Shown here: in pieces, positions 3,740 to 63,702 of the stretch
Numbering within the stretch: the first letter of the stretch is position 1
Layout of the letters: the number at the start of each line of letters is the position of its first letter
Virus record (IMG/VR): IMGVR_UViG_3300045988_176357
Coordinates: 128,053 to 192,052 of that record
Reading direction: 5' to 3' (one strand)
From: a virus
Length of the DNA: 64,000 bases
Made by a program: the position numbers and the translations under genes
Notes under the pieces: generated by a model
What the model was told of the DNA's origin: nothing
Seen by the model: only the letters and a program-made list of their open reading frames with translations
Databases searched by the model: none

Positions 3740-3779
3740 AGCAGAAAGTACAAACGGACGCAACGTCCGTAAGTTCATG

Positions 3780-9597: not shown

Positions 9598-10679
9598 AGT
9601 ACAAGAAAGGTGAATTCGGTTACTGGTGGACCAGGAAAAATGAGGATATTGAAGGCGGAGAGTATGAGGGCTCCATATGTTGTCCTGAAAATCTTACGTC
9701 TTTAAGAGGAGCACCACGAATAGTGACAGGTGAATTCTTTTGTCACCGTTGCCGTATCACAACACTGAGAGGAGCGCCTGAGAAAGTAGGCGGAAATTTT
9801 AGCTGTGTTGAAACGAAGCTGACAGATCTGAAAGGAGCTCCTAAAGAAGTCGGCGGTAACTTCTACTGTGACATGTGCGGGCTGATATCTCTGGAAGGAG
9901 GTCCTCGCAGGATAGGAGGAAGCTTTTACTGCGATAACAACAAGCTCACTTCGTTAGAGGGCGGTCCCACTGAGATTTTCGGTGACTACAGATGCAGCTA
10001 TAACGAGCTTAAAAATTTGTTAGGCGCACCAGAAGTTATTCCTGGCGATTTCATCTGCAGTGAAACCACTCTTAATTCACTGGAGGGCTGTCCAAAAGTA
10101 GTGAAGGGCTCATTGATCCTGGACTATAATTCGCTCATATCCTTGGAGCATTGCGCTAAAAGTGTAGGAGGGGACTTCAATGTAAACTTCAATGGGCTTA
10201 AGTCGTTGTTAGGCGGGCCCGTATCTGTAGGAGGATCCTATAAGTGCGTGAACAATGATCTGCGTACTCTTTTTGGTTGTCCGTCAGTCATAAACGGAGA
10301 CTTTGAGTGCGCAGGCAATGCACTGAATGATCTTGCCTCCTGTCCAAGTAAAGTAACAGGTAATTTTGATTGCTGTAGTAATCATCTGGTTACCTTGGAA
10401 GGAGGTCCCACAGAGGTAGGCGGCGACTATGACTGCTCCGTCAATAATCTACAGACGCTTAAAGGAGCTCCATCGTGTGCTAACGGTGATTTTGATTGCA
10501 GCTTCAATGAATTGACAAGTCTTGAAGGCTCTCCTGATGTGGTGGCTGGAGAATTCGTCTGTCATAATAACAAATTGGAGTCTTTGGTCGGAGGACCTAG
10601 CGTAGTGTCCGCTCACTATTGCTGTTCGTACAATAACTTGAAGTCCCTGAGAGGGATTGCTCATAAAATCGGTGGAGCT
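9594..10679 (+). CDS. second BspA-like LRR protein, exon 1
   Basis: Same N-terminus and repeat pattern as 5473; ORF runs into the IStron B 5' end (gct|taacaact). Confidence 0.55.
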
Positions 10680-11172
10680 TAACAACTCCCTTTAACCAGT
10701 GATGGTTATTGAACAAGAAAGTGAATTGCTAATAGATCCCAAGAGCCTCACGACGCCAATAAAATGGATCGAAAGAGAAAACAAAGAAGTGAGGATACCG
10801 CAAGGCGACAATAAGCCTAAACGGGAGTGACAACGGACGTTTAGCAGCCGAGCCATGCGTTCGACAGAACGCCAGCGCATGGAAGGTTCATCGACTAGGA
10901 CATTGTGTCCGTACCCGAGCAGCCATGTGCGTGATAACGCACGAAAGCAAGGGGAAGTACTCTTGGTTGGGAACAACCAAATGAAATAGTCAGTGCTTCA
11001 TGGAAACATGAAGAGCGGTTAGGAGTGACAACCTGAAACCTGCTACTGGGTGGCAACCGGTAGTGAACAGAACCATGGACTTCAATTGTACTTTAATTTC
11101 ATCAAGAACATTTAACGTTTTGATCTTTACAGATACGGTGTATAATACACCTAAACTGAAGGTGTAAATTTC
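10680..11172 (+). ncRNA. group-I-like ribozyme portion of IStron B
   Basis: Conserved with the other copies. Confidence 0.5.
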
Positions 11173-12288
11173 ATGATCAGAACAAACGTCATAAGATTGT
11201 ACCCGACAAGGGCACAGGAAGCGCAGCTGAATAACACAGCTGGCGCTTGTCGTTTCGCATGGAATAAAGCCCTCAGTTACTGGGATGAGCAATATGAAGC
11301 TCATCTTAAGGATAAATCCATTCCGTTACCGATTTCTTCCAAAGTAGCAAGCTGGTATAAAGACAACCGCGAAGAATGGGCGTCCGAAACATCTTCTGTC
11401 TGTCAGCGCCAGGAAATACTTCACCTTGGCAAAGCCTTCCACAGCTACTTTAGACGTCCGGACCATTTCGCACATTCGAAGTTCCACAAGAAGGGAATTA
11501 AGGACTCATTCGAGGTTCCGAATGACAAGGCGAAAATCAAAGACGGCAGACTTTCATTGCCGAAGATAGGCGAAGTCAAAATGGCTGAGCCGCTTCGCTA
11601 CCAAGGCAAGATATGCAGCTACACAGTAAAGAAGTCAGGCGGCAACTGGTATGTTCACATACCTGTGGAAACAGGTAAGGACGAGAGAGTTCGTTGCATC
11701 AATCCAGAGTCCGTCGTCGGTATCGACGTAGGACTTCTGAATCCGGCTGTAGCCAGCGACGGCACCAAGCTGGAGCTCCCAAAGGAAACCTTGGACAAGC
11801 TCGACGCCAAACTCAGGCGACAGCAAAAGGCACTCTCCCGTTCACAAAGGAACTCCAGAAACCATGCCAAGCTTCTTCTCAAGAAGCAGCGTACTCAAAA
11901 TAAGATCAACAACATCCGAAAGGATGCAGTACACAAGTTCACGACCGCCATTGCCAAGAGCCACGGCAAGGTAGTCATTGAGGATCTGGATATAAAAGAG
12001 ATGAAGGCCAAGGCCCCCGCACGTTCAGTGCGTCGCGCCTACAACAGCTCCCTCATGGGCGCCATTCGCTGGCAGCTCTCTTACAAAGTCCAGCACCTGA
12101 TCAAGGTGAATCGTTTCTTCCCGTCTTCCAAGACCTGCAGCAACTGCGGGCACATAAAGGGCGACCTCACCGTAGGTGAACGTACATATCATTGCGACCA
12201 CTGCGGAGCGGTCATCGACCGCGACCTCAACGCCGCAATCAACTTGATGAAAGCAGGGCTGGTCAAGCCCGAAGTGTCTGTGGAGTAA
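11173..12288 (+). CDS. tnpB: TnpB, intact, 371 aa
   Basis: IS605 OrfB N-terminus MIRTNVIRLYPT; C-terminal zinc finger; Shine-Dalgarno site upstream. Confidence 0.85.
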   Translation: MIRTNVIRLYPTRAQEAQLNNTAGACRFAWNKALSYWDEQYEAHLKDKSIPLPISSKVASWYKDNREEWASETSSVCQRQEILHLGKAFHSYFRRPDHFAHSKFHKKGIKDSFEVPNDKAKIKDGRLSLPKIGEVKMAEPLRYQGKICSYTVKKSGGNWYVHIPVETGKDERVRCINPESVVGIDVGLLNPAVASDGTKLELPKETLDKLDAKLRRQQKALSRSQRNSRNHAKLLLKKQRTQNKINNIRKDAVHKFTTAIAKSHGKVVIEDLDIKEMKAKAPARSVRRAYNSSLMGAIRWQLSYKVQHLIKVNRFFPSSKTCSNCGHIKGDLTVGERTYHCDHCGAVIDRDLNAAINLMKAGLVKPEVSVE

Positions 12289-12349
12289 GCTGGTACCAGC
12301 TTACGTTGAATCAGAAAGTACAGACGGACGCAATGTCCGTAAGTTCATG

Positions 12350-12590
12350 ACAGACATATATTGCGCCGATAATGAGCTGCCTGTTGCTGACAGCAAAAGA
12401 GCAAGATACGCTTTCGAAGCCAAGGATAATCTGCTGGAGGTATGTGGTGGCTTATAACAAGAACGTCGAGTATTTGTACTCCGTCGTATTTCCTTCGTTT
12501 AGTTCCAGCAAGGCGGTGCATGATGAGCTGGTGCACAGACACAGGAAAGAGACGGAAAAGGTGGGATATGTCCGAAGCAAGTTTGACTGA
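12350..12590 (+). other. 3' exon of LRR gene 2, with an apparent frame discontinuity
   Basis: Frame starting at 12350 continues the LRR pattern (IGGATDIYCADNELP) but stops at ~12457; a different frame (12372-12590) matches the LRR C-terminal domain (AVHDELVH vs AMHDGEAYAH). Confidence 0.35.
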
Positions 12591-20594: not shown

Positions 20595-20643
20595 CTAAAA
20601 CATTCAGCCGGGTACTTATGTGCCCGGCATAAGGACAAACGAA

Positions 20644-30265: not shown

Positions 30266-31725
30266 ATGCTGGAAACAAAAGTCATGTTCAATGCTACAGA
30301 GATCACGATCAAAGTGTCTGTGTGGGCGCGGGGTGATCCGTTCCCTGCTATTGGACATGCTGTAGGTATAGACACAGAAACCGAACTGATTACAGACGCC
30401 GAGCTTACGCCTCCGTTGGTTGTACTCGGCGTTTTTAATCCTGCTGACATGACCTGCTACCAGATATCCTGGACCGACGCGCAGTACTTCATGCAGGAAC
30501 TGCTTAAGCGTGACTGCAAGCTGTACTTCGCCAATGCAGGATTTGATTACTTCGAGCTTGAAAGCGATGAACTTCGAGATGCGGTCAGCAATGACCGTCT
30601 CGTAGACTTGCTCATCAGGGCTCCGCTGAAAGAGATCGCTACGATAGGTTACATCAGAACGCACAGCCTGAAGGATGCCTGCCAGTGGCATCTCAATTAC
30701 GAGATGGACAAGCACGAGGATGAAGGCGACCAGGCAGCTCGTGTCACGTTCCGAAGGAACAAGGACATTACAGATGAGCAGCGCATTTACCTGACAATCG
30801 ACTGTGCGTCCACCTATTATGCATGCGAGGCGATCGGGCCTCAGGCGACAGAGTGCACGCATACACGTGGGCAGATCGTCCTGTATCATATCAGCAAGAA
30901 CGGCTTTCCGTATGATCCGTACATGTTTGATTACTGCGAGAAGCTGTTACAGCAGCATATGGACCAGTACCGTGCAGAGCTCATCACGTACGGGTATCCT
31001 GATCCATACAAGAAGGACATGCCGACAGATATCAAGCAGCTGCAGGACGGCTGGCCGATGTTCAGGGACGCCTGGTTCGCCGCTCATATCAAAGAGAAGT
31101 ACCAGTTCGAGGACTCGCTGCCAGGCAAGAGCACTGTAAAGCGCATATTGCTGTACGGCACTGCGTATATGCAGCACGGTACCGATAAAGGCACTCTGGC
31201 ACGAGTGTTCGCAGCATTGCTGCTGCAGGACAAGAACCTGTCCAAGAAGGAACAGGCTGCATATGACCAATTGGTGGAGGAGCACGACTTTCTGGATGCC
31301 TGCAACGGTGTTGGCAAGAAGGAGGTTTGGCCGACGCTGCTGGTTGCGTGGATGCGTGCCGAGCTGGATGGCAAGGACATTGCTGGCATCTGGCAGGCAG
31401 TGGACGATGCGGTGCAGGACCACCCGCAGTGGTTCTGTACTGAGGAGCCTGTCAAGCCCAAGGCGTTCATGCAGGACCATCTGCGGGAACTGCAGGAAAA
31501 GTACCCTGGACTGGAGTTCGACAAGACGCTCAAGTCAGGTGAACTGAAGTGCTCCAAGAAGGACGCGTGGAAGTTGGCGGATGCGGGAGTGAACGATCCG
31601 CTGCTGACCGCGTACGTAAACTTTGGCCATGTGCAAAAGTATAAGTCGTCGTTTACCAATAGGGAATACCTGAGGAGCGACGGCAGAGTGCGGTGCCGCT
31701 TTGGCATCGTGGAGAGCGGTCGGTT
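30266..31725 (+). CDS. family-A DNA polymerase, exon 1 (3'-5' exonuclease domain plus N-terminal polymerase domain)
   Basis: Exo I GIDTETE, Exo II FANAGFDYFEL; ORF then reads into intron 1. Confidence 0.75.
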
Positions 31726-32051
31726 TGGCCGCTTCACACCGCGAGGTGTGTCGAACAAGAAAGTGAATTGCTGGGACACCTTAACGGGTAACGCCGAAGG
31801 CAATCAGCAGCCGAGCCATGCGTTCGACAGAACGCCAGCGCATGGAAGGTTCATCGACTATCCCGTACGTAATGGGAGTACCCGAGTAGCCATGTGCGTG
31901 ATAACGCACGAAAGCAAGGGGAAGCACTCTGGCTCAGGAATGAGTCAATGATATAGTCAGTGCGCTTATGGAAACATAAGGAGTGGTCAGGAGTGACAAC
32001 CTGAAACCTGCTACTGGGCGGCAACCGGTAGTGAACAAGATCCTTGGTGTG
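31726..32051 (+). ncRNA. polA intron 1: transposase-less IStron-type group-I-like intron
   Basis: Hairpin cacacc-gcga-ggtgtg plus the conserved core; ends ...ccttggtgtg; junction restores ..SGRFT|ISSLRTSASKPNLQQYP (PolA TGRLSS..PNLQNIP region). Confidence 0.55.
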
Positions 32052-32183
32052 TACAATATCAAGCCTGCGTACATCGGCATCTAAGCCGAATCTCCAACAA
32101 TATCCGTCACACGATCCGGTGTTTGCCTTGAAAAACATGTACAAGCCACCGGATGGAACCATTTTTGTCAGCGTAGACTATAG
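32052..32183 (+). CDS. polA exon 2 (through motif A ..VSVDYS)
   Basis: PNLQQYP and VSVDYS motifs. Confidence 0.6.
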
Positions 32184-33227
32184 CTTCGAAGCGGAGCCTT
32201 CACACCGCGAGGTGTGTCGAACAAGAAAGTGAATTGCTGGGAGTGCATAATGCCTGCGAGGCTACAGCGTAACCGCAAGGTAAGCGCGACAGCTGCGAAA
32301 GCAGAAAGAACACGCAGGATGGCATAAGGTGACAGTAAGCCTAAGTGCTGTGACAATTGCTGATCAGCAGCCGATCAAGGGATCTCCTAAGGCGAAAGCT
32401 ATGGAGCCCGGAAAGGGTTCAGAGACTAAGCGCTCCTTCTCTGGAAACGGAGAAGATGATATAGTCCGATTGTATTTAAATATTATTGCTGTATAATTAG
32501 AATATATAAGGCATTAACCACACAGAATTAACATGGACACAAAACCCGTTGGTTTCATTTACAGAATATATTGTACGTTGTAGTACTGTAGCAAAAGCTA
32601 TATAGGGCAGACACGACACAGCATATAGAAAAGGTTCGCTCAGCACTGTTGTCCTGGAGCGAAGCGAAAGACTTACATAGACAGAGCTATCGCATATCTA
32701 GGTAAATAGCATTTTTGTATCGAGTAGCTTGCAGAAGCACAAACGCTTCAGTAGTTAAATAAGCTGTAGATCTAGTATATAGAGAAGTACGGTAGTTTGT
32801 TTCCGGGTGGATTTAATATATCTAAAGGAGGTACAGTACCGTAGTTTACTTACTCTGGTAAGCCTGTAGTGCATTACTAGACCGGTATTGTATATAGAAA
32901 CAGTCAGTAGGCTGCATAGGCTACAGGTTGTAATGCTTCAGATATTCGTAGTATAGCCAACAAACGTATAAAGTCTACAAAAGGGAATCACTTTTATTGG
33001 TAGTTTACAGCTTTATAGGCTTATTTGGACTTTTGGAATACTCCGGATAAGAATGGTCCGAAGCGTATTATCAATGTCAGTACTGGATAGGTGTTTTAGT
33101 CACAGATAGCTGTATGCAGAAAATACAACCTAACTAAGTCACAGGTATCCAGAATGTGCCTAGGCAAAACAGCTAGTCTGAAGTCGTGTCCTTATGTATT
33201 TGAGTTTTACCAGCAATAAGCAGTTAG
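32184..33227 (+). ncRNA. polA intron 2: second type of group-I-like core (32186-32468, sharing the 5' module) plus a GIY-YIG HEG
   Basis: Core has a close homolog at 34910-35194; ends with G at 33227; junction restores DYS|AELVALAES (compare DYSQIELRILAHLS). Confidence 0.55.
32533..33219 (+). CDS. GIY-YIG homing endonuclease with NUMOD1 DNA-binding module; 15 in-frame TAG codons, no TAA/TGA
   Basis: With TAG read as a sense codon: MDTKPVGFIYRIYCTL.YCSKSYIGQTRHSI.KRFAQH ... STG.VF.SQIAVCRKYNLTKSQVSRMCLGKTASLKSCPYVFEF; stops with TAA 9 nt before the 3' splice site. Confidence 0.7.
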
Positions 33228-33465
33228 CGCAGAGTTGGTCGCGCTGGCAGAATCGTGCATAACAAAGTACGGCGAGTCCGTATTAGGCACTATTATCAAC
33301 GCGGATGTATGTCCGCATTACTTCTTCGCCGGTGTCATGATGGGTCTCATAGACGCCGACGTCAGCTTTTGCAGGGATCCCCAGGAAGTGGATCGTGTCA
33401 AGAAGTTCCTTAAAGAGCACGTAAGCAAGGAAGAAAGACAGAGAGCAAAAGCAGTTAATTTCGGT
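33228..33465 (+). CDS. polA exon 3 (O-helix / motif B up to ..RQRAKAVNFG)
   Basis: Motif B RRxAKxxNFG. Confidence 0.65.
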
Positions 33466-34498
33466 TAAATAATGTAAAGGAATGTAAAATGTAGTATAGA
33501 TGTTTGGAGTGTGGGTGTCTGTTCTAGGCTAAGCAACCGGCTAAATACTGCTCGCAAGCACATAAACAAAGGAAACAGAACCACAAAAGATAGGTGTATA
33601 TCTGTTTAAATTGCGGTTGTAAATTTTAGAGAGCAAAGCGTTCTGATTATGTTTTTTGCGGGCATAAATGCCGGTGTGCATATAGATAGAGTCATCCTTA
33701 GTTCGACTAGAGATAGTTCGTAGTTAGTAGAATGCAAGCGGATAACACACTGAAGTTCAGTAATAGATAGGCAAAAGCTAAAGCTAATGACATATATTGT
33801 GGTAAAACCCGGTTACGGTGGTCATAGGAAGCTTTAGATGCTTAGCTGTAGAGACGTGGTATATCAGTAACAGATTTTGGTCATAGGTGCTACAATAAAA
33901 CTTTAGCCCAATCGCCCTACGCATAGGTAATTGCGTCTAAATAGAAAACTTTAGATAAGCGTAGACGTATATATGCAAAGAAGAAAGCACTCGGCCTTAT
34001 TGTTACTGAAAAGTCTACTAACCAGAAGGTAAGATAGGCTATAATTAAATAGAGATATGGAATATGCTAGTGCTGTGGTTACTGTCAAAATGTCGATGCT
34101 TTGCAGTTACATCATGCAGATATGGATAGAAGCCACAATAATAAAGCTAATCTAGTTCTCTTATGCGCTAATTGTCATCAGATACTGCATACACGTATAA
34201 AGCGCAATTGGCATATGTATACGTAGCCTAAAGTCACATGTATATTACAATAGTTGCAAAGTATGTAGGCCGAAGTAAAAGAGCGGAATAAAGCGGGAAC
34301 TGCCGACAGGCAAACCCGAACCGAAGGCACGCAGGAATGCGTGTCAGGGGCAACGCGTAGCAGTACGTCCAGCTCGGATATGAACTGCCAAGAGGCCGCT
34401 CCTCTGCAGCCTATGCTGCAAAAATGTACGCTGAACACCGGTGTATGGACAGAAAGACCGGGAGCTATGGGATAAAAAGCCCGTAGGATAACAAATTG
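33466..34498 (+). ncRNA. polA intron 3 carrying an HNH HEG
   Basis: 5' splice site after ggT, 3' splice site after ttG; junction restores NFG|LPGGMKGKRLYQHL (compare NFGLIYGMSAFGLARQL). Confidence 0.55.
33489..34475 (+). CDS. HNH homing endonuclease with N-terminal CxxC zinc-ribbon repeats; 20 in-frame TAG codons, no TAA/TGA
   Basis: With TAG as sense: ..YRCLECGCLF..YCS..YICLNCGCKF... CQCCGYCQNVDALQLHHADMDRSHNNKANLVLLCANCHQILH; ends with TAA ~25 nt before the 3' splice site. Confidence 0.65.
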
Positions 34499-34909
34499 CT
34501 GCCAGGTGGCATGAAAGGCAAACGCCTATATCAGCACCTGAGAGAATGCGGCATCAAGGCTACGTTGCAGGAAGCCTTTCAGCTCAGGGAAACCTGGCTG
34601 CGAACCTTTAAGGAAATGAACCTGCACTTCGCCAGAACGCCGCTAAGACAAGACCCAAGGGAAAGGTACGCCTGGATACCTGCAAGTGACGACGACACAA
34701 GTACAGAGGACGCTGACCCGAAGGCAGATAAGCGCAAGGGTCGTCAGCTGTATGAAGTCACAACAATTACAGGCTTCAGACGTAACCGTACCGTAATCAA
34801 CAGCTGCCTGAACACAGAGTTTCAGAACCCAGTTGCACATCTTGCAAAGGAGGCTCTATGGAACTTCGAGAGGGCAGGACTCGGTAATCGTCTGCTGAAT
34901 TTTGTCCAT
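34499..34909 (+). CDS. polA exon 4 (to ..LLNFVH of motif C)
   Basis: Ends with the H of the VHDE motif. Confidence 0.65.
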
Positions 34910-35194
34910 GGCATCGTGGACGTTAAAGAAAGTGAATTGCTGGGAGTGCATAATGCCCGACTGCCTGATACAGGAGCGAAAGCAGAAACAAGTGTCGGGA
35001 TGCCTCAAGCTGAAACAAGTACCCGTGAGGGGCGCTAAAAGGTGGTGCAATTGCTAATCAGCAGCCGATCAAGGGATCTCCTAAGGCGAAAGCTATGGAG
35101 CCCGGAAAGGGTTCAGAGACTATCCCGCAAGGGAGTAGGGCGAAAGTCCGAAGCACTCCTTCTCTGGAAACGGAGAAGATGATATAGTCCGAAG
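34910..35194 (+). ncRNA. polA intron 4: compact group-I-like intron (same core type as 32186-32468)
   Basis: 5' splice site after caT, terminal G at 35194; splicing restores motif C FVH|DEADYW. Confidence 0.65.
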
Positions 35195-35440
35195 GATGAA
35201 GCAGACTACTGGGCCTACCCAAAAGAGGTCAGGCAGCTAGCTCCGATAGTGGAGCGATTGTGGCTGGAGCCTGGTCGCCGTGTGTTCCCTCATGTCATGC
35301 TCAAGTGCGAGACATCACTGAGCCTGTACTGGGACAAAGGCGGCGTCGAATTTCCAGATGTCAAGTGGAACGATAACGGGGAGCCGATACTGGAACTCCC
35401 GCCGTTCGTTCAACAGGCGTATGCCGCAAAAAGTACATAA
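35195..35440 (+). CDS. polA exon 5 (C-terminus)
   Basis: In frame from DEADYW to the TAA stop. Confidence 0.65.
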   Translation, partial: DEADYWAYPKEVRQLAPIVERLWLEPGRRVFPHVMLKCETSLSLYWDKGGVEFPDVKWNDNGEPILELPPFVQQAYAAKST

Positions 35441-40815: not shown

Positions 40816-41431
40816 GATGTTGTTGCAGAAACTGAAGATCGCGCGCGAAAGCAGTTCGCGTGTTGTCTTCTGCTATAAGTATGTCTGGTCCCGAATCGAC
40901 GACTATGTGTCACTGACCAATCTGAGACTGGAAGCAATACAGGTCCGCGACGGCAAGGTCTTCCATACACAGGCCGCTCCAGTGCTTGATGTGAACCATG
41001 GTAAGCCCAGAGTCGCATTCGCAGATTCCGGTATCGTGCAGGTCACCTCAGGACCCCGATCGAACATTGTCTTGAGAGAACGTCTGCTGCACGCCAACGA
41101 GACAGCAGCTCCGGTTCCCTTTTGTGGAACCAGGGAAATTACAGAAAGCAGCGATGAGAAGGATCTTCAGGTAGTCTATGACTTCCTGACATCCGCAGCC
41201 TTTCCTGGCGTGGATATGCGCATGCCGCAGTTGTTCCGGATCACGAAGAACCCTGAAAGGCTGCGCCTGAACATCACACCTGACTTGCTGCAGGCTCTTG
41301 ATCTGGATCCCGGAACACCCAGTAAGGAGATACAGGATGCGTTCCTGAACAAACTGCCTTCCATTTCAGCGCAGACATCCGAAGGATACGTGTTGCCGTT
41401 CAACGTGTGCCGCATGTGTTTCACATGCTGA
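40803..41431 (+). CDS. hypothetical protein
   Basis: ORF. Confidence 0.4.
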
Positions 41432-41442
41432 CCAGCACACAA

Positions 41443-43010
41443 AGGACTCCTTGGCGCGTGAGCGCCATTGAACAAGAAAGTGAATTGCTGGAACACCTTA
41501 ACGGGTCATGCCGAAGGCAATCAGCAGCCGAGCTTATGGATGCCCAGACCGGGCGCCGTGAGAAGGTTCATCGACTATCCCGGAAGGGAGTACCCGAGCA
41601 GCCATGTGACCGGCAGGTCACGAAAGCAAGGGGAAGCACTCTGGCTCAGGAATGAGTCAATGATATAGTCAGTGCGCTTATGGAAACATAAGGAGTGGTC
41701 AGGAGTGACAACCTGAAACCTGCTACTGGGCGGCAACCGGTAGTGAACAGAACCATGGTCTCAAAATAGCAACATTATTTTGACGTTTTGATTTTCATAA
41801 AGGTGATGTATATTATCTGTATACAATAAGGAGCGCCATGTACAGAGCCCATAAGATACGCATAGATTGCACAAAAGAGCAGCACAGTCTGTTAATGCAG
41901 ACTGCAGGCTGCGCTCGTTATGCGTACAACTGGGGACTCGAGAAGTGGGGCAAGCAGTACGAAGCCTGGAAGGCTGATAGCAGCTTGGAGGAACCCAACT
42001 GGGTTAACATATCCAGACAGTGGACACAAGAGAAACCTGAATGGGCAAACAAGACAGCACGCAGTGCTGTTACCTGCTCACTGCGTAATCTCGGCACCGC
42101 CTTCAAGAACTTCTCAAGGCGCAAAGCAAAGTACCCGAAGAGGCATAAGAGGTCTCAAGGAATCTCCTTCCAGCTTGGAAACGATACCTGCAGTATCGAA
42201 GGCAACCGCATCAGGCTGCCTATCATAGACTACGTAAAGCTCCGTGAGACTCCACGATTCCAAGGCAAGATAACAGGCTACACAGTGCAGCTCATCGCTT
42301 CCCACTGGTACGTGACAGTCGCCTTCGACTGTCCAGACGTCCCCAAAGAAGCTCCAGAGTCCGTCGTCGGTATCGACGTAGGACTCCAGCACCCGGCTGT
42401 AGCCTCCGATGGAACAGTACTCCAGCTCCCTCTTGAGAAACTACAGAAGCTCGAAGCCAAACGGCGCAGAGCTCAGCGAGCCCTTTCAAGGAGCAAACGC
42501 AATTCCAATGCGCGAGAGCGCAAGCGTGATAGACTCCAACGTATACAGCAGAGGATCACCAACATCCGACAGGATGCAGTTCACAAGTTTACGACTGCAG
42601 TGTGCAAAAACCACGCCACTGTAGTCACCGAAGATCTGGACATAAACGAGCTCAAAGACAAGGCCCCCGCACGTTCAGTGCGCAGAGCCTACAACAGCTC
42701 CCTTATGGGACTCATTTTGTTCCAGATCTCGTACAAGGCGGTGCACCACGTAAAGGCACCCAAGTTCTTCCCGAGCACCAAGAGATGCTCAACTTGTGGA
42801 CACATTAAGGAGGCCATGCCTCCGCAAATCAGAACATACCATTGCGACCACTGCGGAGCCCATCTCGACAGAGATGAGAACGCAGCTCGCAACTTGATGT
42901 TGCAACCGTGGGTCACACGGTAAGAGGCGCGGTGATGGTACAGGCAGCGTCAGCTGCAGGTACCAGATGATCCGCGAAGACAGTCCGGTGCAACGCCGGA
43001 TGAGATCATG
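41443..43010 (+). mobile_element. IStron copy 4 (subfamily 2), apparently intergenic
   Basis: Hairpin ggcgc-gtga-gcgcc then the core; right-end hairpin atccgg-tgcaacg-ccggat + gagatcatg. Confidence 0.65.
41838..42923 (+). CDS. tnpB: TnpB, intact, 361 aa
   Basis: OrfB N-terminus; zinc finger. Confidence 0.85.
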   Translation: MYRAHKIRIDCTKEQHSLLMQTAGCARYAYNWGLEKWGKQYEAWKADSSLEEPNWVNISRQWTQEKPEWANKTARSAVTCSLRNLGTAFKNFSRRKAKYPKRHKRSQGISFQLGNDTCSIEGNRIRLPIIDYVKLRETPRFQGKITGYTVQLIASHWYVTVAFDCPDVPKEAPESVVGIDVGLQHPAVASDGTVLQLPLEKLQKLEAKRRRAQRALSRSKRNSNARERKRDRLQRIQQRITNIRQDAVHKFTTAVCKNHATVVTEDLDINELKDKAPARSVRRAYNSSLMGLILFQISYKAVHHVKAPKFFPSTKRCSTCGHIKEAMPPQIRTYHCDHCGAHLDRDENAARNLMLQPWVTR

Positions 43011-43119
43011 ACAGTGACTGGGTATATGCAGGCGGCATGATCGCTGCAAGTATAACAGGCATCGGCAAGCATAAGCCTAAGGTACTGTACACCAGAGGTA
43101 TGGACTTCTTCCGTAACTG

Positions 43120-44261: not shown

Positions 44262-44360
44262 GTGTTGGATACATCTATCAGACCTCCGGATAAATGGAGG
44301 GCAGCAGCAATACCAAAGAAAGACGGATCGTTCAAAATATACTACATATTAGGTATACGT
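44262..44360 (+). CDS. retron-type reverse transcriptase, 5' exon (..AIPKKDGSF..)
   Basis: IPKKDGSF finger motif in a frame open from 44241; start codon uncertain (GTG or TTG). Confidence 0.45.
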
Positions 44361-45928
44361 AAAGGACGCCTTGGCGCGTGAGCGCCATTGAACAAGAAAG
44401 TGAATTGCTGGGACACCTTAACGGGTAATGCCGAAGGCAATCAGCAGCCGAGCTTATGGATGCCCAGACCGGGCGCCATGAGAAGGTTCATCGACTATCC
44501 CATATGGGAGTACCCGAGCAGCCTGGCTGCGACAGCAGCGAAAGCAAGGGGAAGCACTCTGGCTCAGGAATGAGTCAATGATATAGTCAGTGCGCTTATG
44601 GAAACATAAGGAGTGGTCAGGAGTGACAACCTGAAACCTGCTACTGGGCGGCAACCGGTAGTGAACAGAACCATGGTCTCAAAATAGCAACATTATTTTG
44701 ACGTTTTGATTTTCATAAAGGTGATGTATATTATCTGTATACAATAAGGAGCGCCATGTACAGAGCCCATAAGATACGCATAGATTGCACAAAAGAGCAG
44801 CACAGTCTGTTAATGCAGACTGCAGGCTGCGCTCGTTATGCGTACAATTGGGGTCTCGAGAGGTGGGGCAAGATGTACGAAGCCTGGAAGGCTGACAACA
44901 GCTTGGAGAAACCCAACTGGAAAAACATATCCAGACAGTGGACACAAGAGAAACCTGAATGGGCGAACAAGACGACACGCAGTGCTGTCACTTGCTCACT
45001 AAGCAATCTCGGTACTGCCTTCAAGAACTTCATAAGGCGCAAAGCAAAGTACCCGAAGAAGCACAAGAGGTCCCAAGGAATCTCATTCCAGCTTGGAAAC
45101 GATACCTGCAGTATCGAAGGCAACCGCATCAGGCTGCCTATCATAGACTACGTAAAGCTCAGAGAGCTTCCGCGCTTCCAAGGCAAAATCACAGGCTACA
45201 CAGTTCAGTACATAGCTTCCCACTGGTACGTGATAGTCGCCTTCGACTGTCCAGACGTCCCCAAAGAAGCGCCAGAGTCCGTCGTCGGTATCGACGTAGG
45301 ACTCCAGCAACCAGCTGTAGCCTCAGATGGAACCAAGCTAGAGCTACCCATAGAGAAGCTCCAGAAGCTCGAAGCCAAACGACGCAGAGCTCAGCGAGCC
45401 CTTAGCAGGAGCAAGAGGAATTCCAATGCGCGAGAGCGCAAACGGGCCAAGCTTCAACGTATACAACAGAAGATCATCAACATCCGTCAGGATGCAGTTC
45501 ACAAGTTTACGACTGCAGTGTGCAAAAACCACGCAACTGTAGTCACCGAAGATCTGAACATAAACGAGCTCAAAGACAAGGCCCCCGCACGTTCAGTGCG
45601 CAGAGCCTACAACAGCTCCCTTATGGGACTCATTTTGTTCCAGATCTCGTACAAGGCGGTGCACCACGTAAAGGCACCCAAGTTCTTCCCGAGCACCAAG
45701 AGATGCTCAACTTGTGGACACATTAAGGAGGCCATGCCTCCGCAAATCAGAACATACCATTGCGACCACTGCGGAGCCCATCTCGACAGAGATGAGAACG
45801 CAGCTCGCAACTTAATGTTGCAACCGTGGGTCACACGGTAAGATGCGCGGTGATGGTGCTTGTGACATTCGTCACGAGCTCCAGACGATCCGCGAAGACA
45901 ATCCGGTGCAACGCCGGATGAGATCATG
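44361..45928 (+). mobile_element. IStron copy 5 (subfamily 2) inside the RT gene
   Basis: ~93% identical to copy 4; same ends. Confidence 0.65.
44756..45841 (+). CDS. tnpB: TnpB, intact, 361 aa
   Basis: Near-identical to 41838. Confidence 0.85.
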   Translation: MYRAHKIRIDCTKEQHSLLMQTAGCARYAYNWGLERWGKMYEAWKADNSLEKPNWKNISRQWTQEKPEWANKTTRSAVTCSLSNLGTAFKNFIRRKAKYPKKHKRSQGISFQLGNDTCSIEGNRIRLPIIDYVKLRELPRFQGKITGYTVQYIASHWYVIVAFDCPDVPKEAPESVVGIDVGLQQPAVASDGTKLELPIEKLQKLEAKRRRAQRALSRSKRNSNARERKRAKLQRIQQKIINIRQDAVHKFTTAVCKNHATVVTEDLNINELKDKAPARSVRRAYNSSLMGLILFQISYKAVHHVKAPKFFPSTKRCSTCGHIKEAMPPQIRTYHCDHCGAHLDRDENAARNLMLQPWVTR

Positions 45929-46791
45929 ACAGAAGGTACCTGTTGATACCTAACGACGAACTGAAACAAAGACAAAGAGAAATCCTCGACTACCTGTACA
46001 AGGCGCATCTGAGAGTGCACGAGGCTGCTGTCGGCTTCATGCCGAACAAGTGTACTCTCAACGGCTGCTTGCAGCATGCTGCCGATGCACAGGTAATTAT
46101 CAACCTTGATGTACATGATTTCTTCCCCAGCTTTCCTGTAGATAAAGTCAGGTCAGTGTTGACAGCCCAGCTAGGCGCGGCAGTTGCAGACTACATTGTC
46201 GATATAGCAACTTTTAAAGGTAAGCATAGACAGCAGTTGCCTCAAGGTGCGCCGACTAGCCCGTATCTTACCAACATTGCACTTTACAAGTTCGATTGCA
46301 ATATGGCGGCAAATGCGAAACGCAGAGGATTCACGTATACGCGATATGCGGATGACATCACATTGGCGAGCAGCAGCGAGATGCGTGTCAACTACATCAA
46401 GACTCTGATTCACGGAACTGAAAGAAGGTTGCGTGCGCTCGGTCTTACGCTGTCCAGGAAGAAAACAAATGTCATATTCAGGAACAGTCCGCGTGTTCCG
46501 AGACGCATAACAGGGGTAACTGTTCGTAAGGATGGATTCGGATTCAATGCACCTATCGGCTTGCGCAAGCAGGCTCGGGCAATGATACACAACCTGTACA
46601 CAGCACTTAAGAGCGGTGTGCCTGCACAGGAACTTGTACCTGAATATCGCAGTGCAATGGGTACTGTGCAGTATTGCGACTTTATTCGCAGTGCCAGTAT
46701 TGTTCCTGAATGTGCAACAGCCGACCCGGCTATAAAAACACATGAACTCGAATATGTAAAGGGGGTCTTCCGTGCCTATAGACATTATTGA
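45929..46791 (+). CDS. retron-type reverse transcriptase, 3' exon
   Basis: Aligns with Ec86 RT: NLDVHDFFPS, QLPQGAPTSPYLTN, RYADDITL, ITGVTV. Confidence 0.75.
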
Positions 46792-50521: not shown

Positions 50522-51943
50522 ATGATCATCATTGCAACTGCTAACAACAACGAAAACCTCAACAACATCAGGATCAACCTTGACAACAGCATCTCTCTCG
50601 GTCAGCTTCTCGACAGAGATGATGTTCGTGCATTCTTCCACAATGCCAGCAAAGAGAGCATTCTGGCAAGCCTCGTTACCATTGACGGACTCGATGCCTA
50701 TGCCATTACGAATGCGAGCTCTCTGACTGTTGACAATACTATGGAATTGCAGTTCGACATCTACGGCAGAGCACCGGAGACCGCACATACAGCTGCTGCT
50801 TCCGCCGGGTTCGTCACAATTACTCAGGGCGGAGGTTTCAACAGCAAGCGTGTGCCTATTGTGTCAGATACGACAAGAGCAGGGGATGTGCTTACACAGG
50901 ATGTGGCCAATTTCTTCGCCACAACTGTGGATACTCTGCACAATATGCGTATTCTTATCAATGATGTCGAGGCGGAAACAACAGCTGTACTGCACGACGG
51001 CGACGCGATTACTCTCATGTCCAGAAAGTGCGGCGACAAGGGGGCATGTGTACCCATTCTTGCAATTACGCATACTGACGGATCTGTGACGAGACATGCA
51101 GTCCTTGCAGGTTCCAGGCTCAAGGAATGTCTCTCCAGGATTGTTCCCGGTGCGGTAGTGCTGTCTATCGACGGTACAGCGGTACCCATGAACTTCTATG
51201 ATGCTATTGTAGAAGGCAAGCTGGTTGACAAGGACATGCAAGTGACTGTCAACGATAACAAGAAGTGCACGGTGCATTGCTGCGCCAATGACGGCAGTGA
51301 TCCGGTCGACATGATCCTGGATGATGGCAGTTCTGTGATGGACCTGCTTACCAAAGTACAGGACAAGTTTGAAAACGCTGAGATCTATGTCTTTGACGTG
51401 GACGGCGATCTGGTACCGGAAGCTTTCGCCGATACCATCCTGACTAATACACTTGTCGTTGATGGTATGTATGTAACTTTCAGTTCGCTGCGTGAGATGC
51501 CTGTTGTACATGGCTATATGAACATGGAAGACGACAGCGAAGAAGATGAAGAAGATGAAGAAGATGGTGCTGAGTATGCAGATGACGAGCAGGTACTTGA
51601 AGGTCCTGCAGAAGATGCTGTAGGCGCCGTAACAGTCGTTCTTCCCGGGGGCTTCAGCACCTCTCAGGTCGCAATCAGGAACAATGTGACGAAGCTTCGT
51701 GATGTTGTTCTCAGCGCACGTATTCTGAATATGTCTGCGATGAACGAAAGCCAGGCGCAGACTCTCGTATACACAGTGAACGATGTCGAGAGCAATCTCG
51801 ATGATACTCTGAGCATCGGTGATGTGATCCGGATGTCTGCACGTAAAGCAGGCGACAAAGGAAGTGCATTGAAAGTTACTGTCAAGCTGATGGATGCCAC
51901 CGAATTCCGGTATGACGTGGAGCCGGGGACAAGGCTCGAGGCT
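50522..51943 (+). CDS. multi-domain ubiquitin-like protein, exon 1
   Basis: Repeated ~90-aa modules ending (I/M)S(R/A)K(C/A)GDKG; acidic linker; ORF runs into the IStron E 5' end. Confidence 0.45.
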
Positions 51944-53606
51944 TAACAACCTCCATTGAGGAGTGATCCTCAATGCAAAGAAAGTGAATTGCTAATAGAT
52001 CCCAAGAGTCTCACGACGCCTTTAACAAGGATCGAAAGAGAAAACAAAGAAGTGAGGATACCGCAAGGCGACAGTAAGCCTAAACGGGAGTGACAACGGA
52101 CGTTTAGCAGCCGAGCCTTGTATCGAGAGATACCCGGTACAAGGAAGGTTCATCGACTAGGACATCGTGTCCGTACCCGAGCAGCCGTGTGCGTGATAAC
52201 GCACGAAAGCAAGGGGAAGTACTCTGGCTCAGGAATGAGTCAATGAAATAGTCAGTGCTTCATGGAAACATGAAGAGTGGTCAGGAGTGACAACCTGAAA
52301 CCTGCTACTGGGCGGCAACCGGTAGTGAACAGAACCATGGACTTCAATTGTATTGTTATTTCGTCAAGTTTTATTTACCGTTTTGATCTTTACAGAACGG
52401 AGTTATAATACTCTCAGTAACTGGAGAACACTTTGGAACCAAGAGCACACATAATCAGATTGTACCCGACAAGGGCACAGGAGAAGCAGCTGAAGAATAC
52501 CATCGGCTGCGCTCGTTATGCGTACAATTGGGCTCTCGAGAAGTGGCGGGAGATGTATGCCGCACATGATAAGGACAAGGCTTCTCCAAAGCCAAGTGCC
52601 TTGAAGCTGACCAAGTTATGGACTCAGGAGAAGCCTGACTGGGCACATGAGACAGCTTATTGCAGCCAGCAAAGAGCGATACATAACGTAGGCGTCGCTT
52701 ATCAGCGCCTTTAGAGGGGCTTATCGGCGAAGCCGAAGTTCCATAAGAAGGGCGGCAAGGAGACGTTTTACGTTGATAATGCGAAGGTCGCATGGTACGG
52801 CAATAGAATCCAGTTGCCCGACATCGGACGTGTCCGCGTAGCGGAGCAGATCCGTTTCGAGGGCAAGGTAATGGGCTACACAGTGTCCCATTATGCCGGA
52901 CAGTGGCATCTCATAGCTCAGGTCAACGCCGAAGGTGATGTGAAACCTTATTGTGCCAATCCAGAGTCCGTCGTCGGTATCGACGTAGGACTTCTGAATC
53001 CTGCTGTAGCCTCCGATGGAACCGTCTTGGAGCTCCCTATTGAGAAGCTTCAGAAGCTCGACGCCAAACTCAGGCGACAGCAGAAGGCACTCTCCCGTTC
53101 ACAAAGAAACTCCAGAAACCACGCGAAGCTTCTCATAAAGAAGCAGCGTACACAGAATAAGATCAACAACATCCGTAAGGATGCAGTACATAAGTTCACG
53201 ACCACCATTGCCAAGAGCCACGGCAAGGTAGTCATCGAAGATCTGGACATCCAAGGAATGAAGGATAAAGCTCCTTCAAGAGCCGTCAGAAGGGCGCATA
53301 ACAGTTCCCTCATGGGCGCCATCCATCGGCAGCTCTCCTACAAAGTCCAGCACCTGATCAAGGTGAATCGCTTCTTCCCGTCTTCCAAGACCTGCAGCAA
53401 CTGCGGGCACATAAGGAGCGCCCTTGATTTAAGTGAACGTACATATCATTGCGACCACTGCGGAGCGGTCATCGACCGCGACCTCAATGCCGCAATCAAC
53501 TTGATGAAATCAGGGCTGGTCGAGCCCGAAGCGTCTGTGGAGCAAGTCGGTACCGACTTGCGTCGAAGCAGAAAGTACAAACGGATGCAATGTCCGTAAG
53601 TTCATG
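51944..53606 (+). mobile_element. IStron copy E (~98% identical to copy A) inside the multi-ubiquitin-like gene
   Basis: Same 5' end (gaggct|taacaacctccattgaggagtgatcctca) and right end; junction ...RLEA|TDFLMS is in frame. Confidence 0.7.
52433..53599 (+). CDS. tnpB: TnpB with in-frame TAG at 52712-52714
   Basis: Same TAG position as copy A. Confidence 0.75.
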
Positions 53607-54017
53607 ACAGATTTCCTTATGTCTAATTATCCGGACTCCATTGTACTTGGCATCAATGGTGTCAGGGTAGATCCTGAGTTCTATGTGCCTGTTCTTGATG
53701 GCTTCACCCTGAACAGAGATACTGTGCTGATTGTGAAGGCCAGCCCGAAGATGACAGTGCACTGTTACTCCGGACATGTCGAGCCAAGCCTCTACTGCAC
53801 ATCTTATAAGATGAATTACGACAGTACCGTACAGGACTTGCTTAAACTGGTACAGAAGGACTTCGGCAATGAAGACATACGCGTGACGCAGATTGATCTC
53901 AAGGACGTACCGGAAGACTTTATGCAGGTTATCCTGGCAGGCACGTTTATTACAGAGCAAATGGTTGTTACTTTCAATGAGCTCAATGGAGCGGGAAAGG
54001 CACGCAAGACACTGTAA
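53607..54017 (+). CDS. multi-ubiquitin-like protein, exon 2 (ends ..NGAGKARKTL)
   Basis: In-frame continuation after the IStron. Confidence 0.45.
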   Translation, partial: TDFLMSNYPDSIVLGINGVRVDPEFYVPVLDGFTLNRDTVLIVKASPKMTVHCYSGHVEPSLYCTSYKMNYDSTVQDLLKLVQKDFGNEDIRVTQIDLKDVPEDFMQVILAGTFITEQMVVTFNELNGAGKARKTL

Positions 54018-59430: not shown

Positions 59431-59475
59431 AACATTCAGCCGGGTACTTATGTGCCCGGCATAAGGACAAACGAA

Positions 59476-63700: not shown

Positions 63701-63702
63701 GA

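What the first reader, a model, noticed from the sequence alone, without database searches (positions are those of the whole stretch)
31726..32051. Modular IStron family: a shared 5' module with variable GNRA-loop hairpins and at least two ribozyme cores; transposase-less minis in polA and nrdD
All ten elements carry ..(t)gaacaagaaagtgaattgct.. preceded by a short hairpin whose stem differs but whose loop is always GNRA-like (gagga-GTGA-tcctc; ttaacca-GTGA-tggtta; cacacc-GCGA-ggtgtg; ggcgc-GTGA-gcgcc). These are compensatory changes, which implies a structured RNA helix (a P1/P2-like helix or a transposase-recognition hairpin).

Downstream there are two different ribozyme cores. Elements at 31726-32051 and 63703-64000 lack tnpB altogether. 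This suggests the IStron 5' module is a portable unit and that IStrons decay into ordinary introns in this genome.
Basis: seen in the sequence. Interest (0 to 1): 0.6.

Follow-up and report, generated by a model that had tools for sequence, protein, structure and literature searches.

The report
Group I introns and IStrons in phage
The flagged stretch is a 347-base self-splicing group I intron in a gut phage DNA polymerase gene, one of nine related ribozymes in the window, five of which carry a TnpB nuclease gene (IStrons); the variable hairpin is the ordinary P2 stem of these ribozymes.

Summary
Nine elements, not ten, all on the + strand, share the motif. Eight of the nine have a hairpin with a GNRA loop 12 nt upstream of it.

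All nine match Rfam group I intron RF00028 just below its threshold. In that alignment the hairpin is P2 and the shared 20-mer is J2/3-P3-J3/4-P4 of the catalytic core, not a separate portable module. P2 covaries strongly across 46 sequences.

The focal element is polA intron 1 (31721-32067). polA has four introns, and the spliced protein aligns colinearly with a solved Pol I.

Five elements are TnpB-carrying IStrons. Contigs 92-97% identical to the window show precise empty sites and extra copies at other sites, which indicates recent mobility.

In type-1 IStrons the last four exon bases pair with the internal guide just upstream of P2. They covary at 31 distinct insertion sites, and the exon ends in G, as in the published IS607-type IStrons.

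The "two cores" are three sequence types of one IA2-like fold, with helices exchanged between copies. Cargo-less derivatives that keep IS remnants exist in related contigs. The polA and nrdD minis keep no remnant, so their origin is unresolved.

Verdict: new members of a known kind.

The parts
31721..32067 (+). polA intron 1: 347-nt group I intron (type 2 ribozyme, no cargo). This is the focal element.
   Evidence: Rfam RF00028 40.9 bits, E 5e-7. The junction ESG|RTSASKPNLQ aligns with PDB 8jrb_A. The 5' exon ends in U (31720) and the intron ends in G (32067).
31716..31732 (+). P1. The exon strand GCGGU plus intron C (31716-31721) pairs with the internal guide GGCCGC (31727-31732). The U.G wobble falls at the splice site.
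   Evidence: 6 of 6 pairs. The splice site agrees with the protein alignment.
31735..31750 (+).
   Evidence: Assigned to P2 in the Rfam alignment. Covariation in alignment A1.
31753..31772 (+). Shared 20-mer: J2/3, the P3 5' strand (AGA..GUG), J3/4 (AAU) and the P4 5' strand (UGCU..)
   Evidence: Rfam alignment. P3 and P4 partners found in all nine elements.
31856..31958 (+). P7 (GACUA 31856-31860 with UAGUC 31954-31958). It encloses P7.1, P7.2, P3' and P8.
32043..32067 (+). Terminal stem CUUGGU/AUCAAG with a 9-nt loop, followed by CCUG and the 3' splice site. It is homologous to the stem that encloses the tnpB cargo in the IStrons.
30266..35440 (+). polA gene. Exons: 30266-31720, 32068-32186, 33228-33465, 34499-34909, 35195-35440.
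   Evidence: The spliced 822-aa protein is colinear with Pol I 8jrb_A across all four junctions.
32187..33227 (+). polA intron 2: type 3 ribozyme (core to about 32470) followed by about 750 nt of AT-rich sequence with no ORF
   Evidence: Rfam 37 bits, E 8e-6. Junction DYSF|AEL. Its P2 and core 5' strand are identical to intron 1 over 45 nt.
34910..35194 (+). polA intron 4: compact 285-nt type 3 ribozyme without P2. It ends 5 nt after P7'.
   Evidence: Rfam 26.3 bits. Junction VH|DE. Helices.
63701..64000 (+). nrdD intron (type 2 ribozyme), cut by the window end. The 5' splice site is at 63699/63700 or 63700/63701.
   Evidence: Rfam 46.7 bits, E 1e-8. Its tail matches the polA mini. The NrdD alignment ends at ..NLNSLASR.
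2115..3783 (+). Type 1 IStron in the sbcC/rad50-like gene. Target GAGG^; the intron ends ..UCAUGACAG.
   Evidence: Empty allele in L004. tnpB 2606-3739 has a TTG start and an in-frame TAG at 2885.
10678..12353 (+). Type 1 IStron (target GGAG^) with intact tnpB at 11173-12288
   Evidence: Pfam OrfB_IS605, HTH_OrfB_IS605 and Cas12f1-like_TNB..
51942..53610 (+). Type 1 IStron (target GAGG^), 98% identical to the copy at 2115-3783. It carries the same in-frame TAG, at 52712.
   Evidence: Empty allele in L009..
41401..43014 (+). Type 2 IStron (5' splice site CCGUU|C) with intact tnpB at 41838-42923
   Evidence: B1-like copies that include the same P1 loop sit at other sites in L031/L081 and L055.
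44333..45932 (+). Type 2 IStron in a reverse transcriptase gene, with intact tnpB at 44756-45841
   Evidence: Empty allele in L055. The spliced product keeps ..IPKKDGSLRYLLIP.. and the RVT_1 match spans the junction.

Best explanation
[quoted passage not shown] The hairpin with a variable stem and a GNRA loop is helix P2 of the ribozyme. The shared 20-mer is the 5' strand of the catalytic core (J2/3, P3, J3/4, P4).

**Proposed mechanism for the focal intron**
- The last bases of the upstream exon pair with an internal guide sequence that lies just 5' of P2. This forms P1.
- The core (P3-P8, with the P3/P7 pseudoknot) folds. P2 presents its GNRA loop, probably for a tertiary contact.
- Guanosine attacks at the splice site.
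- The terminal G, four bases after a closing stem, marks the 3' splice site.
- The exons are joined and the polymerase reading frame is restored.

**The family**
- The same ribozyme scaffold occurs nine times in the window, in three sequence types.
- In five copies the loop of the closing stem holds about 1.25 kb of cargo. The cargo comprises a promoter-like sequence, tnpB, and an omegaRNA-like right end finishing in UCAUGACAG. These copies are IStrons.
- By analogy with studied IStrons, TnpB guided by RNA that reads into the 3' exon would cut empty alleles and drive copying of the element.

**Shown here:** the sequence anatomy, helix covariation, exon restoration, and empty/occupied site polymorphism among close relatives.

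**Inferred:** catalysis, TnpB activity, the TAM, and the route to new sites.
For: - **Rfam.** RF00028 matches all nine elements end to end at 21.6-46.7 bits. The best E-values are 1e-8.
- **Helices.** P1-P9.2 were located in each element, with compensatory variants in P1, P2, P4, P6a, P7.1, P7.2, P8, P9, P9.1 and P9.2.
- **P2 covariation.** All 6 pairs change on both sides. The score is 0.875 against 0.238 for shuffles, and 0 of 500 shuffles reach it.
- **polA.** The spliced gene aligns colinearly with Pol I 8jrb_A at four junctions, each inside a conserved motif.
- **TnpB.** Pfam domains are present in the tnpB ORFs. The RuvC motifs IDVG, (T/I)EDLD and DRD are readable.
- **Mobility.** Closely related contigs have precise empty alleles for three window IStrons. 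They also carry extra copies at six sites that are empty in the window.
- **Type 1 P1.** The exon 4-mer pairs with the internal guide in 124 of 124 cells over 31 distinct sites, and the two middle pairs covary.
- **Closing stem.** Five covarying variants of 8-10 bp enclose the cargo. The minis have the same stem with a 9-nt loop.
- **Published precedent.**
  - IStrons have IA2 ribozymes with P7.1/P7.2 and P9.0-9.2.
  - They have an inverted-repeat stem around the ORFs.
  - ORF-less derivatives are known.
  - The IS607-type group has a G-ending 5' exon (PMC4227781).
Against: - No element reaches Rfam's gathering score of 50 bits.
- No RNA data were available, so splicing is not shown.
- Type 1 IStrons lack the canonical U.G pair at the 5' splice site. 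The exon ends in G.
- The tertiary partner of the P2 loop was not identified. Loop type and P8 sequence do not covary within the window.
- Two of the five tnpB genes carry an in-frame TAG.
- No transposase gene was found, so how new sites are reached is unknown.
Confidence: 0.88

Rival explanations
1. The polA and nrdD minis are IStrons that lost their tnpB/omegaRNA cargo by deletion.
For: - The ribozyme cores are 86-88% identical to the IStron cores.
- The minis have the same closing stem and the same 4-nt spacing to the 3' splice site.
- Deletion intermediates exist in related contigs. L087 keeps a tnpB C-terminal remnant and the right end. L059 keeps the last 120 nt or so.
- About 18 nt of right end suffice for splicing in CboIStron (PMC13521648).
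- ORF-less BcISt1 is a published precedent.
Against: - The minis retain no recognisable IS sequence. The 9-nt loop and the tail CCUG do not match the IStron right end UCAUGACAG.
- Their P1 and P2 differ from those of the type 2 IStrons.
- They sit in classic phage intron sites, inside conserved polA and nrdD motifs, with canonical 5-6 bp P1 helices of their own.
- Mosaic exchange between copies can explain the similarity without descent by deletion.
Confidence: 0.35
2. The hairpin is a DNA-level recognition hairpin for a TnpA (Y1, IS200/IS605-type) transposase at the left end, rather than an RNA helix.
For: - It is subterminal, about 15-20 nt inside the left end.
- IS200/IS605 ends carry hairpins (PMC6006769 abstract).
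Against: - The same hairpin, at the same 12-nt spacing from P3, is present in tnpB-less introns of polA and nrdD and in many cargo-less phage introns.
- The loop is kept as GNRA while the stem varies freely. That is the signature of an RNA tetraloop.
- No matching hairpin was seen in the right ends read.
- No tnpA lies in the elements. The six-frame window contains no serine-recombinase motif.
- Type 1 targets end in G, as in the IS607 type. Those ends are described as lacking inverted repeats or palindromic ends.
Confidence: 0.04
3. The 5' strand of the hairpin is the internal guide sequence that pairs with the upstream exon. On this view the hairpin is an alternative to P1.
For: In type 1 copies with target GAGG, the P2 5' strand GAGGA repeats the exon 4-mer. 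The guide CCUC could therefore also pair with P2.
Against: - In all other variants P2 has no complementarity to the exon.
- The exon pairs with the 4-6 nt immediately upstream of P2 in every element and at 31 of 31 type 1 sites.
- P2 cassettes are shuffled independently of the guide.
Confidence: 0.03

Closest known systems
IS607-type ('group B') IStrons such as BcISt1, CsISt1 and CboIStron (Tourasse 2014, PMC4227781; Zedaveinyte 2023, 10.1101/2023.11.20.567912)
   Same: This applies to the type 1 elements.
- An IA2-like ribozyme at the 5' end, with tnpB and the right end at the 3' end.
- The 5' exon ends in G rather than U. Targets such as GAGG or ..AG are used.
- The intron ends in CAG, as in CsISt1.
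- A stem encloses the ORF region.
- Copies carrying ORF B only, and ORF-less copies, are known.
- IStrons have been reported in C. botulinum phages.
   Different: - No tnpA (serine recombinase) is present in any copy seen.
- The hosts are about 190-kb uncultured human-gut phage genomes, with several copies per genome.
- Four guide/target variants (GAGG, GAAG, GGAG, GGCG) occur within one closely related family.
- The closing stem is 8-10 bp and balanced in composition, not long and AU-rich.
IS200/IS605-type ('group A') IStrons such as CdISt1
   Same: This applies to the type 2 elements.
- A canonical U.G pair at the 5' splice site, with flanking pairs.
- A short closing stem of balanced composition.
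- An ending ..CAG, compared with TCAG in CdISt1.
   Different: - The target is ..(A/C)GUU^ rather than the T-rich pentanucleotide TTGAT.
- There is no tnpA.
- The tnpB is 50% identical to the type 1 tnpB, and the right-end terminus UCAUGACAG is shared with type 1.
- The two kinds coexist and recombine in one genome. Tourasse 2014 found no species with both groups.
Cargo-less or HEG-bearing group IA2 introns of phage DNA-metabolism genes (T4 td/nrdB/nrdD, SPO1 and Twort introns; review PMC3984707)
   Same: This applies to the focal polA intron 1, to polA introns 2 and 4, and to the nrdD intron.
- Insertion inside the most conserved motifs of polA and nrdD.
- P7.1/P7.2 present, except in polA intron 2.
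- A canonical U...G splice-site pair.
- Several introns in one gene.
   Different: - None of these four carries a homing endonuclease gene.
- Their cores are 86-88% identical to co-resident IStron ribozymes and exchange helices with them.

Membership tests
Group I intron (Rfam RF00028) | Match to the covariance model at or above the curated gathering score (50 bits) | tested here: not met
   The best scores are 46.7, 46.5, 43.2, 40.9 and 37 bits. E-values run from 1e-8 to 8e-6. All are full-length matches, model positions 1-253.
Group I intron (Rfam RF00028) | Core helices P3-P8 in canonical order, with the P3/P7 pseudoknot and the J6/7 and J8/7 consensus | tested here: met
   All nine elements have GGUUCA..GACUA and GA(U/A)AUAGUC, each once per element. 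P3, P4, P6, P7 and P8 pair in every element, with compensatory variants.
Group I intron (Rfam RF00028) | P1 formed by the exon end and an internal guide, with U.G at the 5' splice site and a terminal G | tested here: met
   - Met for polA introns 1, 2 and 4 and for the type 2 IStrons.
- The terminal G is present in all.
- Type 1 IStrons have G-C instead of U.G at the splice site. That exception is published for IS607-type IStrons.
Group I intron (Rfam RF00028) | Removal restores an intact host reading frame | tested here: met
   - polA: four junctions, colinear with 8jrb_A.
- The sbcC-like gene, the gene at 50522 and the RT gene: the joined exons equal the empty alleles of relatives.
Group I intron (Rfam RF00028) | Self-splicing activity | not testable with these tools
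   No RNA data or biochemistry were available.
Subgroup IA2 | P7.1 and P7.2 between P7 and P3', and an extended P9 (P9.0-P9.2) | tested here: met
   - Types 1 and 2 have P7.1, P7.2, P9, P9.1 and P9.2.
- polA intron 4 has P7.1/P7.2 but almost no P9.
- polA intron 2 lacks P7.1/P7.2.
IStron | A group I ribozyme and an IS605/IS607-type tnpB inside one pair of splice sites | tested here: met
   Met for five elements: 2115-3783, 10678-12353, 41401-43014, 44333-45932 and 51942-53610. The focal element 31721-32067 has no tnpB, so it is not itself an IStron.
IStron | The transposon right end coincides with the 3' splice site, and a stem encloses the ORF region | tested here: met
   All five end in UCAUGACAG|. 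The closing stem has five covarying variants.
IStron | DNA-level mobility to new sites | tested here: met
   Contigs 92-97% identical to the window lack three of the window copies precisely. They carry copies at six sites that are empty in the window. There are 31 distinct type 1 insertion sites.
IStron | A tnpA transposase (Y1 or serine) in at least some copies | tested here: not met
   Every complete cargo measured for the type 1 and type 2 families leaves room only for tnpB. Cargo is about 1.24-1.27 kb, and the distance from motif to end is 1.54-1.64 kb. The window's six frames contain no Y.RVS(S/T)..Q motif, which is a weak test.
IS200/IS605 left-end hairpin (TnpA-Y1 recognition) | Subterminal DNA hairpins at both ends, recognised by a Y1 transposase, with insertion 3' of a fixed tetra- or pentanucleotide | tested here: not met
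   - No hairpin like P2 is visible at the right end.
- P2 is present in cargo-less introns.
- No tnpA was found.

The most novel reading that the evidence does not exclude
In these phage IStrons, which lack tnpA, the choice of insertion site may be set by the ribozyme's 4-nt internal guide. One closely related family has switched among four guide/target pairs: GAGG/CCUC, GAAG/CUUC, GGAG/CUCC and GGCG/CGCC. All 31 distinct sites pair perfectly.

This reading requires one of two things. Either new sites are reached by reverse splicing at sites complementary to the guide, followed by copying into DNA (the phage encodes a reverse transcriptase). Or the TnpB TAM and the guide co-evolve in lockstep.

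Either way, G-type and U-type IStrons would share and swap parts inside one phage genome.
Probability: 0.2. Interest if true: 0.75.

Novelty: new member of a known kind. Interest (0 to 1): 0.45.

Why it matters
**Annotation.** Ordinary annotation would break polA, nrdD, sbcC and an RT gene into fragments. The splice map restores them.

**Natural data set.** The window and its relatives offer:
- dozens of insertion sites;
- matched empty and occupied alleles;
- intermediates that lost tnpB or lost the ribozyme;
- two splice-site styles in one genome.

**Questions this could address.** How IStrons choose targets, how ribozyme, guide RNA and nuclease co-evolve, and whether phage co-infection drives TnpB homing.

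**Limit.** None of this changes the known concept of an IStron.

Tried and rejected
- **Rfam at gathering threshold:** no hit. The permissive search was needed.
- **Megablast against INPHARED phages:** no match. tblastn with the spliced PolA found only relatives at 32% identity or less.
- **Fetching the rest of the nrdD intron:** the one related locus found in IMG/VR with the NrdD query is cut at the same place.
- **My first splice-site guesses for type 1.** I tried G|AGGCUU.. and GGCU|UAAC. Both were wrong. Empty alleles place the site at GAGG|CUUAAC.
- **The type 2 left end.** I first put it at the B1/B2 homology boundary (41441). That was rejected. Other B1-like copies include the 40-nt P1 loop, and the 3' junction in L081 fixes the intron as [CAACG..ACAG].
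- **A tetraloop-receptor partner for the P2 loop in P8:** there is no consistent loop/P8 pairing among the nine elements (read). I dropped it as a claim.
- **TnpB remnants in the ORF-less 750 nt of polA intron 2:** none at E<1e-3.
- **tRNA or suppressor in the window:** none.
- **Serine-recombinase motif:** none.
- **polA intron 3:** no Rfam family at E<=10.

Full report
**1. What is in the sequence**

The motif GAACAAGAAAGTGAATTGCT is strongly over-represented: 7 hits with up to 3 mismatches, against 0.02 expected. Its 11-nt core occurs nine times on the + strand, at 2155, 10719, 31761, 32227, 34930, 41478, 44398, 51982 and 63739. One more hit on the - strand has no other intron feature. Two further ribozyme motifs, GGUUCA..GACUA and GA(U/A)AUAGUC, occur exactly nine times at the same elements. 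There are nine elements, not ten.

They occur in eight elements. The element at 34930 has none.

**2. Identity**

Rfam finds nothing at its curated thresholds. The permissive search matches the group I intron model RF00028, end to end, at all nine elements. Scores run from 46.7 down to 21.6 bits, with best E-values of 1e-8.

In those alignments:
- the hairpin is P2;
- the shared 20-mer is J2/3, the 5' strand of P3, J3/4 and the 5' strand of P4;
- its GAAUUGC.GG part is the family-wide consensus.

A long insert between P7 and P3' forms P7.1 and P7.2, the hallmark of subgroup IA2.

I located P1 to P9.2 in each element and checked the pairing. Most helices exist in two to four compensatory versions. 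Examples:
- P6a: CCAUGCG/CGCAUGG, CCUUGUA/UACAAGG, CUUAUGG/CCGUGAG.
- P8: GGCUCA/UGAGUC, UGGUUG/CAACCA, UUCUCUG/CGGAGAA.

**3. The hairpin**

The GNRA loop always lies 12 nt upstream of AAGAAAGUG (11 nt in the GAGG-target type 1 copies). Sequences can therefore be aligned without reference to the stem.

A scan of viral contigs for the 16-mer returned 77 loci, about 40 of which are introns. In the resulting alignment of 46 sequences:
- all six P2 pairs show changes on both sides;
- 86% of cells pair, including the few introns that lack P2;
- the covariation score is 0.875, against 0.238 for shuffles (0 of 500 reach it) and 0.12-0.27 for slid registers.

P2 is a real RNA helix.

It lies inside the excised RNA. 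In polA intron 1 the splice site is at 31720|31721 and P2 is at 31735-31750.

It is not the internal guide. The guide is the strand immediately upstream of P2 (GGCCGC at 31727-31732).

**4. The host gene and splice map**

polA is split by four introns, not two. Joining 30266-31720, 32068-32186, 33228-33465, 34499-34909 and 35195-35440 gives an 822-aa protein. It aligns colinearly with the solved Pol I 8jrb_A through every junction:

| Junction | This protein | 8jrb_A |
|---|---|---|
| 1 | SG\|RTSASKPNLQ | TGRMSSLKPNVQ |
| 2 | DYSF\|AEL | DFSQIEL |
| 3 | AKAVNFG\|LPGGM | AKAINFGLIYGI |
| 4 | NFVH\|DE | NLVHDE |

Each intron follows a U and ends in G.

- Intron 1 is the focal element (347 nt).
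- Introns 2 and 4 carry a third ribozyme type.
- Intron 3 (33466-34498) has no Rfam match (see section 9).

**5. IStrons**

Five elements carry tnpB. Pfam finds OrfB_IS605, HTH_OrfB_IS605 and Cas12f1-like_TNB.

| Element | Type | Host gene | tnpB |
|---|---|---|---|
| 2115-3783 | 1 | sbcC/rad50-like | TTG start, in-frame TAG at 2885 |
| 10678-12353 | 1 | repeat protein | intact |
| 51942-53610 | 1 | unknown gene | same in-frame TAG, at 52712 |
| 41401-43014 | 2 | unknown gene | intact |
| 44333-45932 | 2 | reverse transcriptase | intact |

- The two TnpB types are about 50% identical in protein sequence.
- All five elements end in UCAUGACAG.
- The cargo sits in the loop of a stem that forms between the sequence just after P9.2 and the bases just before ACAG|.
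- That stem has five covarying versions of 8-10 bp across the family. It corresponds to the inverted-repeat stem described for IStrons (PMC4227781).
- In polA intron 1 the same stem (CUUGGU/AUCAAG) closes a 9-nt loop and is followed by CCUG|.
- The nrdD intron shares this mini-specific tail up to the last base of the window. It is very probably a mini that ends about 13 nt beyond the window.

**6. Mobility and exact ends**

Several IMG/VR contigs are 92-97% identical to the window.

Window IStrons that are precisely absent in relatives:
- 2115-3783, in L004 (..GGCGAGG^AATACG).
- 51942-53610, in L009.
- 44333-45932, in L055.

Sites that are empty in the window but occupied in relatives: about 14074, 20580, 22518, 55081, 56587 and 59112.

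These pairs fix the ends.
- **Type 1:** the inserted segment is [CUUAACAA...UCAUGACAG] and the exon ends in G.
- **Type 2:** the intron is [CAA...ACAG] after ..GUU, with a canonical U.G pair.
- The type 2 assignment is confirmed by the RT reading frame. The right junction recovered in L081 confirms it independently.

**7. Exon-guide pairing**

One scan of metagenome contigs returned 31 more type 1 loci, mostly from human-gut assemblies, on contigs of up to 191,643 bp. Over 31 distinct insertion sites, the four bases before the element pair with the four bases after the 8-nt loop in all 124 cells.

| Exon 4-mer / guide | Sites (tally) |
|---|---|
| GAGG / CCUC | 10 |
| GAAG / CUUC | 7 |
| GGAG / CUCC | 5 |
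| GGCG / CGCC | 5 |
| GGAG / CUUC (one G.U) | 2 |

- This tally covers the 29 sites whose 8-nt loop matches the strict consensus. The other two of the 31 sites are one more GGAG/CUCC and one more GGCG/CGCC.
- The two outer pairs are invariant G-C and the two inner pairs covary.
- The covariation score is 0.577, against 0.21 for shuffles (0 of 500 reach it).
- Empty alleles show that the 4-mer is host sequence for GAGG and GGAG.
- A G-ending exon, targets such as GAGG or ..AG, and a CAG end are the published traits of IS607-type IStrons. In that family the target motif, the TnpA target and the TnpB TAM coincide, as TGGG in CboIStron.

**8. Modularity and decay**

The "two cores" are three sequence types of one fold. 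Types 1 and 2 are 85-90% identical from P6/P7 to P9.2 and differ mainly in P1, P2 and the P5 extension.

Helix versions are combined freely:
- polA intron 1 shares its P6 with the IStron at 10678 and its P8 with the other four IStrons.
- The nrdD intron shares its P6 with the IStrons at 2115 and 51942, and its P8 with the one at 10678.
- A 45-46 nt stretch (P2 to P4) is identical in polA introns 1 and 2 and the nrdD intron.
- In metagenomes the type 2 P2 (GGCGC/GCGCC) occurs on type 1 backbones.
- L079 joins a type 1 5' part to a type 2-like tnpB and has lost P6-P9.

This pattern indicates recombination among homologous ribozymes, not a single portable 5' unit.

Loss of cargo is documented:
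- L087 keeps only a C-terminal remnant of tnpB plus the right end.
- L059 keeps the ribozyme and the last 120 nt or so.
- L034 keeps only the first 100 nt or so and the last 143 nt or so of an L064-type IStron.

The two window minis keep no such remnant, so whether they are decayed IStrons or ordinary introns is open. ORF-less IStrons, IStrons in phages and multiple origins are already published.

**9. Other observations**

- polA intron 3 has canonical ends and a P1-like pairing (UUCGGU|/GCCGAA) but no Rfam hit. In L042 its 800-nt loop, which holds an HNH remnant, is reduced to 6 nt. That leaves a structured 236-nt element.
- L042 also has a fifth polA intron, which leaves a 9-nt exon.
- ORF 15865-18363 holds a LAGLIDADG intein that is absent from L031.
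- No long + strand ORF ends in TAG.

**10. Verdict**

The elements are new members of the known IStron and IA2 intron kinds. They occur at unusually high density in an uncultured human-gut phage lineage of about 190 kb, with clear signs of recent movement and exchange of parts. Interest is moderate.

Noticed in passing
window 33466-34498 (and L042 5226-5461): polA intron 3 restores NFG|LPGGM. It has U...G ends and a P1-like pairing, UUCGGU|/GCCGAA (34268-34273). It matches no Rfam family even at E<=10. In the relative L042 the 800-nt loop with an HNH remnant (ORF 34101-34226) is only 6 nt long. That leaves a 236-nt structured element (fold z = -3.1). It is either a divergent group I ribozyme or something else.
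   Followed up: partly
L042 4925-5225: The related phage has a fifth polA intron: a type 3 ribozyme (Rfam 44.6 bits, E 4e-10) inserted at ..KAV|NFG... It leaves a 9-nt micro-exon, AATTTCGGT, between two introns. The window lacks this intron.
   Followed up: partly
window 15865-18363 (insert about 16500-17527): An 832-aa ATPase-like ORF carries an intein with a LAGLIDADG homing endonuclease (Pfam Hom_end_hint, Hom_end). The relative L031 lacks exactly these 1028 nt.
   Followed up: partly
window 2885-2887 and 52712-52714; whole window: The two 98%-identical type 1 IStrons share an in-frame TAG in tnpB. Among + strand frames, none of the 58 stop-to-stop open stretches of at least 150 aa ends in TAG (30 TGA, 28 TAA). 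No tRNA gene lies in the window. These are either pseudogenes or a hint that TAG is read through in this phage.
   Followed up: partly
window 44262-44332 + 45933-46791: The gene interrupted by the type 2 IStron at 44333 is a reverse transcriptase (RVT_1, YADD motif). In the empty allele of L055, 5 of the first 12 bases of the 3' exon differ, all synonymously, against about 7% divergence nearby. This is the region a TnpB guide would match.
   Followed up: partly
L079 2809-4177 (same locus in L080, NCBI GCA_019972955.1): A chimeric element. A type 1 5' part (P1 GGCG/CGCC, P2, P3-P5) is joined directly to a type 2-like tnpB (84% identity) and right end. P6-P9 of the ribozyme are deleted, so it probably cannot splice.
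   Followed up: partly
L087 about 845-1395; L059 980-1509; L034 1294-1529: ORF-less IStron derivatives. L087 and L059 keep the ribozyme and the omegaRNA/right-end region but have lost most or all of tnpB. L034 keeps only about 100 nt of the left end and 143 nt of the right end.
   Followed up: partly
window 20593-21781, 35736-36745, 59425-60478 and others: Several paralogous genes with internal tandem repeats (DUF7666 plus pentapeptide repeats). Repeated 350-500 nt modules also occur at 6604, 7356, 13400, 25476, 37589 and 39569 (self-BLAST).
   Followed up: no
window 32470-32500: Directly after the core of polA intron 2 lies a promoter-like sequence, TTGTAT-17 nt-TATAAT. About 750 nt of AT-rich sequence without an ORF follows. 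This is possibly a decayed endonuclease gene.
   Followed up: no
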